Assembly: GCF_006345805.1 (NCBI RefSeq)
Contig: NC_043004.1
Location: forward strand, 45,012,001 to 45,076,000
Length of the DNA stretch: 64,000 nucleotides
Reading direction: 5' to 3'
Source of the DNA: Octopus sinensis
Taxonomy: Eukaryota
Shown here: positions 57,620 to 61,280 of the stretch, one piece after another
Position numbering within the stretch: the first letter of the stretch is position 1
Layout: each line of letters starts with the position of its first letter
Position numbers: made by a program

Positions 57620-60600
57620 GTATATATATGTATAATATATATATATACATATATATATATATATGTATATATATGTATATATATATGTATGTATATTATA
57701 TATATATATGTATATATATATGTATGTATATAATGTATATATATATGTATATATGTATATATATGTATATATATATGTATATATATGTATATATATGTAT
57801 ATATGTATATATATATGTATATATGTATATATATGTATATATATATGTATATTGTATAAAGGGCATTATTACACATAAATGCCTCACACTAGGAGGGACA
57901 AAGTCATTACTACCAAAAATTATACTAATCATACCCAAATGCAGTTTTTCAAAGCAAGACATTTAAAAATGAATTATGTTCTGTATCACCGTGATTTCAC
58001 ATACAACTTGCGTCTAATGATCGTCAGCAGAACTGATTCTGAATACATCATAAATAAACCAACCTTATGTAGCGAAGACGAACAGACAACTGTTCACTCC
58101 GGCCAAGCACATGGAAACTGCATTTGGGTATGATTAGTATAATTTTTGGTAGTAATGACTTTGTCCCTCCTAGTGTGAGGCATTTATGTGTAATAATGCC
58201 CTTTATACAATATAGATATAATTAATTTGTTCAAAGGAAAAAAATTATTTTCGGATTCTTTTCTTTTATGAGGTTTTCACGCTAGCTACCCGATATTTCT
58301 TGTTAAGATCCCTTATTAAGAGATATCCTTAATTGTTAAACTTATTCCGAAATACTTTTCATTACCCGACATGCAGTTCGTATAAAGCCCGCCATTTACC
58401 GGATATATGATTTATAAAACATTCATGTGCTTGGCCGGAGTGAACAGTTGTCTGTTCGTCTTCGCTACATAGGTTGGTTTATTTATGATGTATTCAGAAT
58501 CAGTTCTGCTGACGATCATTAGACGCAAGTTGTATGTGAAATCACGGTGATACAGAACATAATTCATTTTTAATGTCTTGCTTTGAAAAACTGCATTTGG
58601 GTATGATTAGTTAATTTTTGGTAGTAATGACTTTGTCCCTCCTAGTGTGAGGCATTATGTGTAATAATGCCCTTTATACAATATAGATATAATTAATTTG
58701 TTCAAAGGAAAAAAATTATTTTCGGATTCTTTTTCTTTTATGAGGTTTTCACGCTAGCTACCCGATAATTCTTGTTAAGATCCCTTATTAAGAGATTATC
58801 CTTAATTGTTAACTTATTCGAAATACTTTTCATACCCGACATGCAGTTCGTAAAAAGCCCGCCATTTACCGGATATATGATTTATAAACATTCCATGTGC
58901 TTGGCCGGAGTGAACAGTTGTCTGTTCGTCTTCGCTACATAAGGTTGGTTTATTTATGATGTATTCAGAATCAGTTCTGCTGACGATCATTAGACGCAAG
59001 TTGTATGTGAAATCACGGTGATACAGAACATATTCATTTTTAAATGTCTTGCTTTGAAAAACTGCATTTGGGTATGATTAGTATAATTTTTGGTAGTAAT
59101 GACTTTGTCCCTCCTAGTGTGAGGCATTTATGTGTAATAATGCCCTTTATACAATATAGATATAATTAATTGTTCAAAGGAAAAAAATTATTTTCGGATT
59201 CTTTTTTTTATGAGGTTTTCACGCTAGCTACCCGATAATTTCTTGTTAAGATCCCTTATTAAGAGATTATCCTTAATTGTTAAACTTATTCCGAAATACT
59301 TTTCATTACCCGACATGCAGTTCGTAAAAAGCCCGCCATTTACCGGATATATGATTTATAACATTCCTGCTTGGCCGGAGTGAACAGTTGTCTGTCGTCT
59401 TCGCTACATAAGGTTGGTTTATTTATGATGTATTCAGAATCAGTTCTGCTGACGATCATTAGACGCAAGTTGTATGTGAAATCACGGTGATACAGAACAT
59501 AATTCATTTTTAAATGTCTTGCTTTGAAAAACTGCATTTGGGTATGATTAGTATAATTTTTGGTAGTAATGACTTTGTCCCTCCTAGTGTGAGGCATTTA
59601 TGTGTAATAATGCCCTTTACAATATAGATATAATAATTTGTTCAAAGGAAAAAAATTATTTTCGGATTCTTTTCTTTTATGAGGTTTTCACGCTAGCTAC
59701 CCGATAATTTCTTGTTAAGATCCCTTATAAGAGATTATCCTTAATTGTTAACTTATTCCGAAATACTTTTCATTACCCGACATGCAGTTCGTAAAAAGCC
59801 CGCCATTTACCGGATATATGATTTATAAACATCCATGTGCTTGGCCGGAGTGAACAGTTGTCTGTTCGTCTTCGCTACATAAGGTTGGTTTATTTATGAT
59901 GTATTCAGAATCAGTTCTGCTGACGATCATTAGACGCAAGTTGTATGTGAAATCACGGTGATACAGAACATAATTCATTTTTAAATGTCTTGCTTTGAAA
60001 AACTGCATTTGGGTATGATAGTATAATTTTTGGTAGTAATGACTTTGTCCCTCCTAGTGTGAGGCATTTATGTGTAATAATGCCTTTATACAATATAGAT
60101 ATAATTAATTTGTTCAAAGGAAAAAAATTATTTTCGGATTCTTTTCTTTTATGAGGTTTTCACGCTAGCTACACGATAATTTCTTGTTAAGATCCCTTAT
60201 TAAGAGATTATCCTTAATGTTAAACTTATTCCGAAATATTTCATTACCCGACATGCAGTTCGTAAAAAGCCCGCCATTTACCGGATATATGATTTATAAA
60301 CATTCCATGTGCTTGGCCGGAGTGAACAGTTGTCTGTTCGTCTTCGCTACATAAGGTTGGTTTATTTATGATGTATTCAGAATCAGTTCTGCTGACGATC
60401 ATTAGACGCAAGTTGTATGTGAAATCACGGTGATACAGAACATAATTCATTTTTAAATGTCTTGCTTTGAAAAACTGCATTTGGGTATGATTAGTATAAT
60501 TTTTGGTAGTAATGACTTTGTCCCTCCTAGTGTGAGGCATTTATGTGTAATAATGCCCTTTATACAATATAGATATAATTAATTTGTTCAAAGGAAAAAA

Positions 60601-61280
60601 ATTATTTTCGGATTCTTTTCTTTTATGAGGTTTTCACGCTAGCTACCCGATAATTTCTTGTTAAGATCCTTATTAAGAGATTATCCTTAATTGTTAAACT
60701 TATTCCGAAATACTTTTCATTACCCGACATGCAGTTCGTAAAAAGCCCGCCATTTACCGGATATATGTTTATAAACATTCCATGTGCTTGCCGGAGTGAA
60801 CAGTTGTCTGTTCGTCTTCGCTACATAAGGTTGGTTTATTTATGATGTATTCAGAATCAGTTCTGCTGACGATCATTAGACGCAAGTTGTATGTGAAATC
60901 ACGGTGATACAGAACATATTCATTTTTAAATGTCTTGCTTTGAAAAACTGCATTTGGGTATGATTAGTATAATTTTTGGTAGTAATGACTTTGTCCCTCC
61001 TAGTGTGAGGCATTTATGTGTAATAATGCCCTTTATACAATATAGATATAATTAATTTGTTCAAAGGAAAAAAATTATTTTCGGATTCTTTTCTTTTATG
61101 AGGTTTTCACGCTAGCTACCCGATAATTTCTTGTTAAGATCCCTTATTAAGAGATTATCCTTAATTGTTAAATGTATATATATATGTATATATATATGTA
61201 TATATGTATATATATGTATATATATATGTATATATGTATATATATATGTATATATGTATATATATGTATATATATATATG

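What the first reader, a model, noticed from the sequence alone, without database searches (positions are those of the whole stretch)
58115..61172. Tandem array of hammerhead-ribozyme units: candidate cephalopod retrozyme producing ~470-nt circular RNA
Seen: ~6.5 head-to-tail ~472-bp units, six carrying a complete type I hammerhead fold (6-bp stem I, CUGACGA, stem II with GCAA loop, GAAA, stem III, AUA site), inside a TA microsatellite, with no recognisable protein. Established: metazoan non-LTR retrozymes and Penelope-like element pseudo-LTRs are tandem repeats with type I hammerheads; multimeric transcripts self-cleave to monomers that circularise. Inference: this is a young family copied by rolling-circle reverse transcription of a circRNA using a Penelope-type RT in trans. 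The unit is at the long end of what I recall for animal retrozymes, and I do not know of a described octopus family, but I cannot confirm novelty.
Basis: partly seen in the sequence, partly recalled or inferred. Interest (0 to 1): 0.92.

Follow-up and report, generated by a model that had tools for sequence, protein, structure and literature searches.

The report
Hammerhead-ribozyme tandem repeat (retrozyme-type element)
A 3-kb block of six and a half near-identical ~475-base repeats, each carrying a self-cutting "hammerhead" RNA motif, looks like a small parasitic retroelement of an already described kind (an animal retrozyme), and its insertion scars match those left by Penelope-like elements.

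Summary
TRF finds 6.5 head-to-tail copies of a 471-bp unit at 58115-61172, inside a TA/TATG microsatellite. Six units carry an identical type I hammerhead-shaped motif.

- An inverted 275-nt partial copy at 57842-58116, joined head-to-head to the array, with a seventh motif on the minus strand.
- A second, sequence-unrelated hammerhead at 31491-31551, in a ~410-bp single insertion, also between TA/TG microsatellite flanks.

Rfam does not call either motif. Hammerhead_1 gives 14.4 bits against a cut-off of 34. My descriptor gave 0 hits in 20 Mb of simulated sequence.

Both elements fold much better than shuffles in the ribozyme polarity only. Tandem copies, an inverted truncated copy and a (TA)n target together form the published Penelope-like-element insertion signature.

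Best reading: a non-autonomous non-LTR retrozyme, probably integrated by Penelope-type machinery from an uncleaved or circular template.

Not testable here: taxon (the cephalopod claim), cleavage, circles, genomic copy number.

Differences between copies look like long-read assembly noise and give no conservation signal.

Verdict: new member of a known kind; moderate interest.

The parts
56658..57852 (.). Left part of the TA/TATG microsatellite into which the element is inserted (target)
   Evidence: TRF. TG 132 vs CA 12, the same polarity as the right flank.
57842..58116 (-). Inverted partial copy (about 0.58 unit) joined head-to-head to the array. It runs across the predicted hammerhead cleavage site. 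Its outer end lies in an AT-rich stretch of the unit that overlaps the TA repeat by about 5 nt.
   Evidence: the repeat finder I7: 275 nt, 100% complementary to 60303-60577. Sequence read. A 2-nt AA overlap with the array at 58115-58116.
57978..58033 (-). Seventh hammerhead motif, on the minus strand, inside the inverted copy
   Evidence: Descriptor hit; core pattern hit at 57995-58027 on the - strand.
58115..61172 (+). Tandem array: a 438-nt partial unit, five cleavage-to-cleavage units (471, 469, 471, 472, 474 nt) and a 263-nt partial unit
   Evidence: TRF; anchoring and alignment.
58503..58558 (+). Hammerhead motif 1; predicted cut 3' of A58552
58974..59029 (+). Hammerhead motif 2; predicted cut 3' of 59023
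59443..59498 (+). Hammerhead motif 3; predicted cut 3' of 59492
59914..59969 (+). Hammerhead motif 4; predicted cut 3' of 59963
60386..60441 (+). Hammerhead motif 5; predicted cut 3' of 60435. This is the copy tested against Rfam.
60860..60915 (+). Hammerhead motif 6; predicted cut 3' of 60909
61175..61578 (.). Right part of the interrupted TA/TATG microsatellite, followed by (ACAT)n at 61581-61642
   Evidence: TRF; TG 41 vs CA 6.
31372..31781 (+). Second, sequence-unrelated single-copy element (about 410 bp) carrying a hammerhead motif. It is flanked by (AT)20(GT)5 on the left and (TA)7(TG)10 on the right, a duplication that looks like a target-site duplication.
   Evidence: no similarity to unit A; + strand fold z -3.98, - strand z -1.88.
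31491..31551 (+). Hammerhead motif of the second element: the same core (CUGACGA ... GAAA), an AUA cleavage triplet, a 6-bp helix I, a helix II with a 2x2 internal loop at the same position, and a 4-bp helix III
   Evidence: Descriptor hit; pair lists; Rfam does not call it.

Best explanation
The array is a non-autonomous retroelement of the animal non-LTR retrozyme kind. How it most likely works:
1. The array is transcribed as a multimeric + strand RNA (inferred).
2. The hammerhead in each unit cuts after the A of the AUA triplet. It acts alone or, more likely, as a double hammerhead formed by two motifs through an extended helix III. This releases monomers of about 470-477 nt (inferred from the motif; not shown).
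3. Monomers are ligated to circles and fold into a compact, highly paired RNA (by analogy with coral, mussel and axolotl retrozymes).
4. A Penelope-like element supplies reverse transcriptase and GIY-YIG endonuclease in trans. It nicks a (TA)n microsatellite, and target-primed reverse transcription runs several times round an endless (circular) or uncleaved multimeric template, giving 6.5 units.
5. The second nicked strand primes a shorter cDNA (0.58 unit) in the opposite orientation, and the two meet head-to-head (inferred from the anatomy).

A second, unrelated element with the same ribozyme architecture, also inserted in a TA/TG microsatellite in this window, suggests that such elements are common in this genome.
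For: 1. The tandem array and six identical motifs are confirmed.
2. The motif is not a chance match. The strict descriptor gives 0 hits in 20 Mb of simulated sequence. The relaxed one gives one site in 2 of 20 simulated window-equivalents. In the real window both find only the 7 family copies plus one independent site.
3. That independent site (31491-31551) sits in an unrelated sequence but has the same core, the same AUA site, a 6-bp helix I followed by an internal loop, a helix II with a 2x2 internal loop after four positions, and a 4-bp helix III. Of 15 positions that pair in both motifs, 7 differ on both sides, 3 on one side and 5 are the same (pair lists).
4. RNA structure is strand-specific:
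   - Circular fold of unit A: z -4.76 and -3.85 in the ribozyme polarity, -1.71 in the other.
   - Element B: z -3.98 (0 of 100 shuffles as stable) against -1.88 (5 of 100).
5. Two 77-nt ribozyme segments cofold into a double hammerhead at -34.5 kcal/mol, against 2 x -11.7 kcal/mol for monomers. Dimeric action is the published mode for many animal type I hammerheads.
6. A U.U mismatch at the base of helix II has a published, cleaving precedent, axolotl HHR_Amex2. Long helix II with an unpaired base at its foot is a published trait of PLE hammerheads.
7. The insertion anatomy matches the published PLE signature: partial tandems, an inverted 5'-truncated copy immediately upstream, and a (TA)n target. 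Dual hammerheads on opposite strands 100-700 bp apart are also reported for PLEs; here they are about 470 bp apart.
8. Neither outer end of the insertion coincides with the cleavage site, and the inverted copy runs across that site. The template was therefore not a cleaved linear monomer.
9. GC is 33% and there is no ORF above 98 aa, as for published retrozymes.
Against: - Rfam's Hammerhead_1 model scores motif A at 14.4 bits, far under its gathering score of 34. It does not report motif B at all.
- Helix II is irregular in both motifs. In isolation the hammerhead fold is not the minimum-energy fold: A is -7.9 against -9.1 kcal/mol, B is -6.3 against -9.6 kcal/mol. In a 111-nt context the MFE fold of A breaks the hammerhead.
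- The copies give no evidence of selection on the ribozyme. There are 0 differences in 386 hammerhead cells, but once the homopolymer bias of the deletions is allowed for, 2.3 are expected (P 0.10).
- No RT or GIY-YIG domain was found in the window in the 30 window ORFs tested, nor in the 10 element ORFs. The partner element is therefore assumed, not seen.
- No other copy of either element is in the window, and no eukaryotic collection could be searched, so mobility of the family is not shown.
- No 30-40-bp 'tail', often seen at PLE ends, is visible.
- Local DNA-level amplification by unequal crossover is a published alternative for such arrays.
Confidence: 0.7

Rival explanations
1. The array is a hammerhead-bearing minisatellite that grew at the DNA level. 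A terminal (pLTR-like) fragment of a Penelope-like element, or a single retrozyme monomer or dimer, landed in the microsatellite and was then expanded by unequal crossover or replication slippage. No rolling-circle reverse transcription was involved.
For: This route is proposed in print for non-LTR retrozymes. The units are near-identical with no informative variants, which fits recent homogenisation as well as one-step synthesis. Microsatellite surroundings are recombination- and slippage-prone (established knowledge, not tested here).
Against: Both ends of the insertion and the inverted partial copy abut the microsatellite directly, with no ORF remnant of an autonomous element. The inverted copy is 100% identical to the array and is permuted relative to it. 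One two-sided priming event explains this more simply than insertion followed by expansion. Neither point is decisive.
Confidence: 0.15
2. This is an ordinary AT-rich minisatellite whose hammerhead-like motif is inactive (a decayed or chance resemblance). No ribozyme biology is attached.
For: The Rfam score is below threshold. Helix II has a U.U at its base and an internal loop. The hammerhead fold is not the MFE. No conservation signal is detectable.
Against: The descriptor gives 0 hits in 20 Mb of simulated sequence. A second, independent motif of the same architecture lies in the same kind of insertion in the same window. Both elements show a strand-specific excess of RNA structure. A cleaving precedent exists for the U.U feature.
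Confidence: 0.08
3. This is partly an assembly artefact. The copy number of the array, or the head-to-head junction with the inverted copy, was created by mis-assembly of noisy long reads.
For: Differences between copies are almost all single-base deletions (33 of 44), and 23 of 28 sit in homopolymer runs (P 0.0009). This is typical of unpolished long-read sequence. PLE-type tandem/inverted structures are known to trouble assemblies.
Against: The inverted copy ends in a microsatellite of the same polarity as the far flank, not in more inverted array. That is not what a fold-back chimera would give. The hammerhead motif and the unit itself do not depend on copy number.
Confidence: 0.07

Closest known systems
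Metazoan non-LTR retrozymes (Cervera and de la Pena 2020, PMC7229834; sections 13-15 and passages read). The nearest example is the mussel Mytilus galloprovincialis repeats of about 350-390 bp.
   Same: Head-to-tail repeats of a few hundred bp; a type I hammerhead in each unit; low GC (33% here); no ORF, LTR, PBS or PPT; a highly self-paired predicted circle. Mussel hammerheads also lack the archetypal loop 1-loop 2 nucleotides.
   Different: The unit is somewhat longer (471-477 bp), though it lies within the 51-972 bp range reported in 2026. Helix II is long and interrupted. Helix III is more stable (4 bp). RNA circles are not shown here. The passages I read do not describe a microsatellite target or an inverted head-to-head partial copy for retrozymes.
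Axolotl HHR_Amex2 in the 350-bp repeat Rtz_353 (PMC7229834, section 15)
   Same: A U.U mismatch at the base of helix II. It cleaves weakly as a monomer (22% in 1 h) and well as a dimer. Motif A is also predicted to favour a double hammerhead.
   Different: A different animal group and sequence. The axolotl helix III has 2 bp with a tetraloop; here it has 4 bp with a 3-nt loop.
Hammerheads in the pseudo-LTRs of Penelope-like elements (Cervera and de la Pena 2014, PMC4209133, passages), and the PLE insertion architecture (Craig et al. 2021, PMC8557442, passages)
   Same: A long helix II with an unpaired base at its foot or a bulge in the middle. Motifs on opposite strands 100-700 bp apart. Partial tandems, an inverted 5'-truncated copy upstream and a (TA)n target.
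   Different: There is no RT/EN ORF at or near the locus. Helix I is a full 6 bp and helix III is present, unlike the minimal PLE variants. There are 6.5 uniform short units rather than one or two partial tandems of a 3-4-kb element. No 30-40-bp tail is seen.
Twin priming of LINE-1 (seen only as a title and abstract start in the listing, PMC2837659; the mechanism is otherwise recalled)
   Same: An inverted, truncated copy joined to a direct copy, with both outer ends at the target. This is explained by priming from both nicked strands.
   Different: A different enzyme family and a linear polyadenylated template. It is used here only as a mechanistic analogy.
Newt satellite 2 and Schistosoma Sm-alpha hammerhead repeats (recalled; newt repeats are mentioned)
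   Same: Tandem repeats of about 330 bp with type I hammerheads that act as dimers.
   Different: No sequence relation was tested. Those motifs reach the Rfam model they helped to build, whereas this one does not.

Membership tests
Hammerhead ribozyme, type I | Conserved core: CUGANGA, GAAA and a non-G nucleotide at the cleavage site after U16.1 | tested here: met
   CUGACGA ... GAAA ... AUA in 7 of 7 family copies and in element B.
Hammerhead ribozyme, type I | Three helices around the core, with helix I open (5' and 3' ends in helix I) | tested here: met
   Motif A: helix I 6 bp, helix II 6 pairs in 9 positions, helix III 4 bp. Motif B: 6 / 9 of 11 / 4.
Hammerhead ribozyme, type I | A Watson-Crick pair at the base of helix II (10.1-11.1) | tested here: not met
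   U.U in motif A and a G.U wobble in motif B. A cleaving axolotl motif has the same U.U, so this lowers the claim without excluding it.
Hammerhead ribozyme, type I | Reaches the Rfam RF00163 gathering score | tested here: not met
   14.4 bits against 34 for A. Nothing in the wider searches. B is not reported.
Hammerhead ribozyme, type I | Tertiary contacts between loop 1 and loop 2 | not testable with these tools
   Both motifs have an internal loop in helix I after 6 bp (read), which could serve as loop 1. No tool tests the contact.
Hammerhead ribozyme, type I | Site-specific self-cleavage | not testable with these tools
   Needs in vitro transcription.
Animal non-LTR retrozyme | Tandem repeat of about 50-1000 bp with a type I hammerhead motif in at least two consecutive units, hammerhead MFE < -5 kcal/mol (operational rule of the 2026 preprint) | tested here: met
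   6.5 units of 471 bp; six consecutive motifs; MFE -9.1 kcal/mol. I used my own descriptor, not their rnabob models.
Animal non-LTR retrozyme | Low GC, no coding capacity, no LTR/PBS/PPT | tested here: met
   GC 0.33. Longest ORF 98 aa, without a Pfam hit above cut-off and without homologues among proteins of 53-172 residues, the only lengths searched. No terminal repeats other than the units themselves. PBS and PPT were not searched for specifically.
Animal non-LTR retrozyme | Highly self-paired monomer RNA | tested here: met
   Circular MFE -115.8 kcal/mol against shuffles at -90.4 +/- 5.3 (z -4.76), 69% paired. Second copy z -3.85. Opposite polarity z -1.71.
Animal non-LTR retrozyme | Expressed as linear and circular unit-length RNA | not testable with these tools
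   No transcriptome data on hand.
Animal non-LTR retrozyme | Dispersed multi-copy family that co-exists with Penelope-like elements in the genome | not testable with these tools
   No further copy in the window and no RT/EN domain in 40 ORFs.
Penelope-like element (autonomous) | An ORF with a PLE reverse transcriptase and a GIY-YIG endonuclease | tested here: not met
   No Pfam family above cut-off in the 10 element ORFs or the 30 other window ORFs. The locus is therefore not filed as a PLE.
Penelope-like element (insertion signature) | Partial tandem, plus an inverted 5'-truncated copy immediately upstream, plus a (TA)n target | tested here: met
   against the description.
Penelope-like element (insertion signature) | [quoted passage not shown] | tested here: inconclusive
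   In array A, unit sequence meets the microsatellite directly at both ends. For element B there is no second copy to define the ends.

The most novel reading that the evidence does not exclude
The locus may be an intact fossil of two-sided ('twin') target-primed reverse transcription on an endless hammerhead RNA. Both nicked strands of a TA microsatellite primed cDNA synthesis at internal, different positions of a circular template. One cDNA ran 6.5 times round and the other 0.58 times, and they were joined head-to-head over 2 nt.

If the same scars recur genome-wide, they would be the first junction-level evidence that Penelope-type endonuclease and RT mobilise animal retrozymes from circles.

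In addition, two sequence-unrelated elements share a hammerhead layout: a 6-bp helix I followed by an internal loop, a long helix II with a 2x2 internal loop after four positions, and a stable helix III. The Rfam model misses this layout. It may define a distinct, abundant hammerhead subclass in this genome.

A read-through transcript would also fold the inverted copy onto the array as a ~275-bp duplex, a possible substrate for RNA editing or small-RNA pathways.
Probability: 0.3. Interest if true: 0.6.

Novelty: new member of a known kind. Interest (0 to 1): 0.4.

Why it matters
Animal retrozymes are a described class. What mobilises them, and from what template, is still argued from co-occurrence and sequence similarity.

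This locus adds junction-level clues that point to Penelope-type integration of an uncleaved or circular template:
- a microsatellite target;
- an inverted head-to-head partial copy;
- ends that avoid the cleavage site.

These clues can be tested simply by surveying all copies in the source genome.

It also shows that the curated Rfam hammerhead model misses both motifs in this window. Rfam-based annotation would therefore under-count such elements.

If the window is from a cephalopod, I found no described family. The searches returned none. Supplements that may list species were closed.

Tried and rejected
1. Rfam as the test of the ribozyme. The whole window at gathering score gave 0 hits. 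The region 57800-61700 at E<=10 gave 52 matches, none a hammerhead; nearly all were miRNA and snoRNA models hitting the TA/TG microsatellites, which I take as spurious. The narrow searches are described above. I therefore wrote my own descriptor and calibrated it on simulated sequence.

2. Conservation of the ribozyme among the copies. At first sight there are 0 differences in 386 hammerhead cells (P 0.005). I rejected this as evidence after finding that 23 of 28 single-base deletions lie in homopolymer runs, which are rarer in the motif (expected 2.3, P 0.10). Columns 342-351 of the alignment, an ambiguous indel block, were left out of that count.

3. Similarity between unit A and element B, or to anything else in the window. 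There were only short chance-level matches (best E 0.02-0.08).

4. Coding capacity and a partner element. Forty ORFs went to Pfam. The only matches were UL17 (E 0.11), RDD (E 0.0076) and SHP (E 0.0088), all below their curated cut-offs and taken as chance. These were ORFs of 98 aa or more from the window plus 38-98 aa from the elements. Of the 47 ORFs >=120 aa, 15 were sent to Pfam; most of the other 32 lie in simple repeats. Decayed RT fragments in shorter ORFs would be missed.

5. The 98-aa minus-strand ORF as a proxy for finding other copies in the protein collection: no candidate. Only lengths of 53-172 aa were searched.

6. Taxon. There are no tRNAs, no Rfam family and no protein domain. 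'Cephalopod' stays unverified.

7. A covariance model from the two motifs. The MAFFT alignment puts helix II and helix III out of register, and only the window could have been searched. I did not build it and did not use the count of structure pairs.

8. A simple snap-back origin of the inverted copy was rejected. The arms are permuted relative to each other and are not a contiguous palindrome.

9. Not used:
   - Genome contigs (bacteria and archaea only);
   - phages, plasmids and E. coli collections (irrelevant);
   - Metagenome contigs and viral contigs (closed);
   - structure and complex prediction (no protein).
   Supplements of PMC7229834, PMC8557442, PMC4209133 and the 2026 preprint were closed. 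They may list species, including molluscs or cephalopods, and hammerhead drawings that bear on the novelty claim.

10. Nothing in the window was taken for human. The window has no N.

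
Full report
OBSERVATION

Tandem Repeats Finder reports an array at 58115-61172 with period 471, 6.5 copies, 97% matches and 2% indels. The array lies between TA/TATG microsatellites at 56658-57852 and 61175-57... precisely 61175-61578.

Anchoring on the predicted cleavage site gives five complete units of 471, 469, 471, 472 and 474 nt. 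A 438-nt partial unit precedes them and a 263-nt partial unit follows. The window has no N.

A loose hammerhead core pattern occurs 12 times in the window against 2.30 expected; 0 of 100 shuffles reach 12. Seven of the 12 belong to this family.

THE MOTIF

Each of the six + strand copies is identical and reads as follows:
- a 6-bp helix I;
- the core CUGACGA;
- a 22-nt helix II hairpin capped by GCAA;
- GAAA;
- a 4-bp helix III with a 3-nt loop;
- the triplet AUA, then the 3' strand of helix I.

Helix II is irregular. It has a U.U mismatch at its base, three pairs, a 2x2 internal loop, then three pairs including one G.U.

Outside the 6-bp helix I there is a 2x3 internal loop and four more pairs. 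The MFE fold of the 77-nt segment predicts this extension.

The hand-drawn hammerhead costs -7.9 kcal/mol against an MFE of -9.1 kcal/mol for the 56-mer. In a 111-nt context the MFE fold is a different one.

Two 77-nt segments cofold into a textbook double hammerhead: helix III extended to 10 pairs around one G.G, helix II hairpins kept, helix I formed between the molecules. The energy is -34.5 kcal/mol against 2 x -11.7 kcal/mol.

RFAM

- There are no matches at gathering score in the window.
- There is no hammerhead among the 52 matches with E<=10 in 57800-61700. Those are miRNA and snoRNA models on microsatellite sequence.
- In a 91-nt search, Hammerhead_1 is the top family but scores only 14.4 bits against a cut-off of 34 (E 0.46). 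Only helix I and the first core strand align.

IS IT CHANCE?

I wrote a descriptor with these requirements: core exact; helix I of 6 pairs; helix II of at least 5 pairs in a symmetric register; helix III of at least 4 pairs starting A-U; a non-G nucleotide at the cleavage site.
- It gave 0 hits in 20 Mb of first-order Markov sequence modelled on the window.
- A relaxed form (one core mismatch, helices of 5/4/3 pairs) hit once in 2 of 20 simulated window-equivalents.
- In the real window both forms find the same eight sites: six in the array, one on the minus strand at 58033-57978, and one at 31491-31551.

Positions 57842-58116 are 100% complementary to 60303-60577 (275 nt).

Read in its own orientation, this copy starts inside a unit, runs through the hammerhead and across the predicted cleavage site, and ends in an AT-rich stretch of the unit. 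That stretch merges with the left microsatellite over about 5 nt.

It meets the direct array head-to-head at 58115/58116 with a 2-nt AA overlap. The two arms are permuted relative to each other, so this is not a contiguous snap-back palindrome.

Both flanking microsatellites have the same polarity: TG 132 vs CA 12 on the left, TG 41 vs CA 6 on the right. This is one microsatellite interrupted by a composite insertion. It is not the pattern of a fold-back assembly chimera.

The hit at 31491-31551 lies in a ~410-bp segment (31372-31781). The segment is bounded on the left by (AT)20(GT)5 and on the right by (TA)7(TG)10. The TA-to-TG boundary is therefore duplicated on both sides, like a long target-site duplication.

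The segment shows no similarity to unit A beyond the core. Yet the motif has the same layout:
- the same CUGACGA, GAAA and AUA;
- a 6-bp helix I followed by a 2x2 internal loop and further pairs;
- a helix II of four pairs (the first G.U), a 2x2 internal loop at the same position, five pairs and a tetraloop;
- a 4-bp helix III.

Of 15 positions that pair in both motifs, 7 differ on both sides, 3 on one side and 5 are the same (pair lists).

Rfam does not report it. Its hand-drawn fold is weaker than the MFE, -6.3 against -9.6 kcal/mol, so it may be less active or decayed.

Because this site was found without having been selected for, it suggests that such elements are frequent in this genome. 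One unselected hit gives only a very rough density.

RNA STRUCTURE

- A cleavage-to-cleavage unit folded as a circle has an MFE of -115.8 kcal/mol against -90.4 +/- 5.3 for 100 dinucleotide shuffles (z -4.76, 69% paired).
- A second unit gives z -3.85.
- The opposite polarity gives z -1.71.
- Element B gives z -3.98 on the + strand (0 of 100 shuffles as stable) and -1.88 on the - strand (5 of 100).

Both elements therefore encode unusually structured RNA in the ribozyme polarity only. Published retrozyme circles are described in the same way.

DIFFERENCES BETWEEN COPIES

Of 3230 aligned cells, 44 differ from the column majority. They comprise 33 single-base deletions, 1 insertion and 10 'substitutions', most of which are a misaligned indel block. 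Only two are clean substitutions.

Outside that block, 23 of 28 deletions lie in homopolymer runs, against 52% expected (P 0.0009). This looks like unpolished long-read sequence, so the true units are probably almost identical and about 477 nt long.

The hammerhead has no differences in 386 cells. After allowing for its low homopolymer content, 2.3 are expected (P 0.10), so no conservation signal can be claimed.

CODING AND SURROUNDINGS

- The longest stop-to-stop ORF in the units is 98 aa.
- Ten element ORFs and 30 other window ORFs gave no Pfam family above cut-off, and no RT or GIY-YIG domain.
- The 98-aa ORF has no homologue among proteins of 53-172 aa.
- There are no tRNA genes.
- The window is AT-rich (GC 0.21-0.40 per 2 kb) and full of microsatellites.
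- I found nothing that identifies the organism.

COMPARISON WITH THE LITERATURE

Cervera and de la Pena 2020 (PMC7229834; sections 13-15 and passages):
- They define metazoan non-LTR retrozymes as tandem repeats of about 150-450 bp with type I hammerheads, low GC and no LTR/PBS/PPT, expressed as self-paired circles.
- Mussel repeats are 350-390 bp, with hammerheads that lack the archetypal loop contacts.
- Axolotl HHR_Amex2 has a U.U at the base of helix II. It cleaves 22% in an hour as a monomer and well as a dimer.
- PLEs are named as the likely mobilisers.

The 2026 preprint of Li, Clavereau and Pollet (abstract, sections 5, 11 and 16):
- It gives consensus lengths of 51-972 bp.
- Its operational rule is two or more consecutive units with a hammerhead of MFE < -5 kcal/mol.
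- It reports similarity of retrozymes to PLE pseudo-LTRs.
- It offers an alternative model of local expansion by unequal crossover.

Craig et al. 2021 (PMC8557442, passages):
- They describe the PLE insertion signature: partial tandems, an inverted 5'-truncated copy immediately upstream, a 30-40-bp tail and a bias for microsatellites.
- The (TA)n bias is reported for Naiads and hypothesised for Neptune.

Cervera and de la Pena 2014 (PMC4209133, passages):
- PLE hammerheads have a long helix II (7-8 bp) with an unpaired base at its foot.
- Motifs occur on opposite strands 100-700 bp apart.
- They suggest that ligated circles could template more-than-unit reverse transcription.

The present locus has all of these features except the ORF and the tail.

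In the passages I read, and in the searches, I did not find the microsatellite target or the inverted head-to-head copy described for retrozymes themselves. Searches for retrozymes or hammerheads in cephalopods or molluscs returned no cephalopod family. An octopus repeat annotation (PMC13282606, passages) lists Penelope-like elements but has no occurrence of 'ribozyme'. Supplements were closed, so species lists could not be checked.

MECHANISM

Shown by the sequence:
- the array, the motifs, the inverted copy, the microsatellite target and the strand-specific structure;
- insertion ends that avoid the cleavage site;
- an inverted copy that crosses the cleavage site.

Inferred:
- transcription;
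- cleavage after the A of AUA, probably as double hammerheads;
- ligation to circles of about 475 nt;
- target-primed reverse transcription by a PLE enzyme on a circular or uncleaved template from both nicked strands;
- joining of the two cDNAs head-to-head.

Confidence is about 0.7 for the retrozyme reading as a whole. It is lower for the circle template and for the two-sided priming.

VERDICT

- The element is a new member of a known kind.
The insertion scars and the second family give the locus moderate value, as a directly testable lead on how animal retrozymes are mobilised.

Noticed in passing
window 31372-31781: A second hammerhead-bearing element: single copy, about 410 bp, unrelated in sequence to the array. 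It is inserted at a (TA)n(TG)n boundary that is duplicated on both sides. Its + strand RNA is strongly structured (z -3.98).
   Followed up: yes
window 57842-58116 with 58421-58695 and later units: The inverted partial copy can pair with the array over about 275 nt. A read-through transcript would form a long duplex, a possible substrate for RNA editing or small-RNA pathways.
   Followed up: no
window 58115-61172: Copies differ almost only by single-base deletions in homopolymer runs (23 of 28). This suggests the assembly is unpolished long-read sequence here. Indel-level detail elsewhere in the window should be read with caution.
   Followed up: partly
window 61172-61690 and 57800-57884: Rfam at a permissive threshold reports many miRNA families (mir-297, mir-3149, mir-466, mir-1277 and others) on the TA/TG microsatellites. 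All are far below gathering scores, and I take them as low-complexity artefacts.
   Followed up: partly
window 7542-7950, 15551-15911, 33111-33170, 36866-37037, 37522-37684, 38087-38170, 39393-39470, 42778-43863: TA and TA/TG microsatellites are unusually dense across the window. Some lie close together with a few hundred bp of unique sequence between them (for example 37037-37522 and 43553-43746). These could be further insertions of the same kind without a recognisable hammerhead.
   Followed up: no
window 10699-10845: A 63-bp unit repeated 2.4 times, GC-rich relative to its surroundings (TRF score 208). Its nature is unknown.
   Followed up: no
window 14597-15091 and 42132-42384: Long CT/CA-rich and C/T-rich low-complexity tracts with strong GC skew. 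They account for many of the long spurious ORFs.
   Followed up: no
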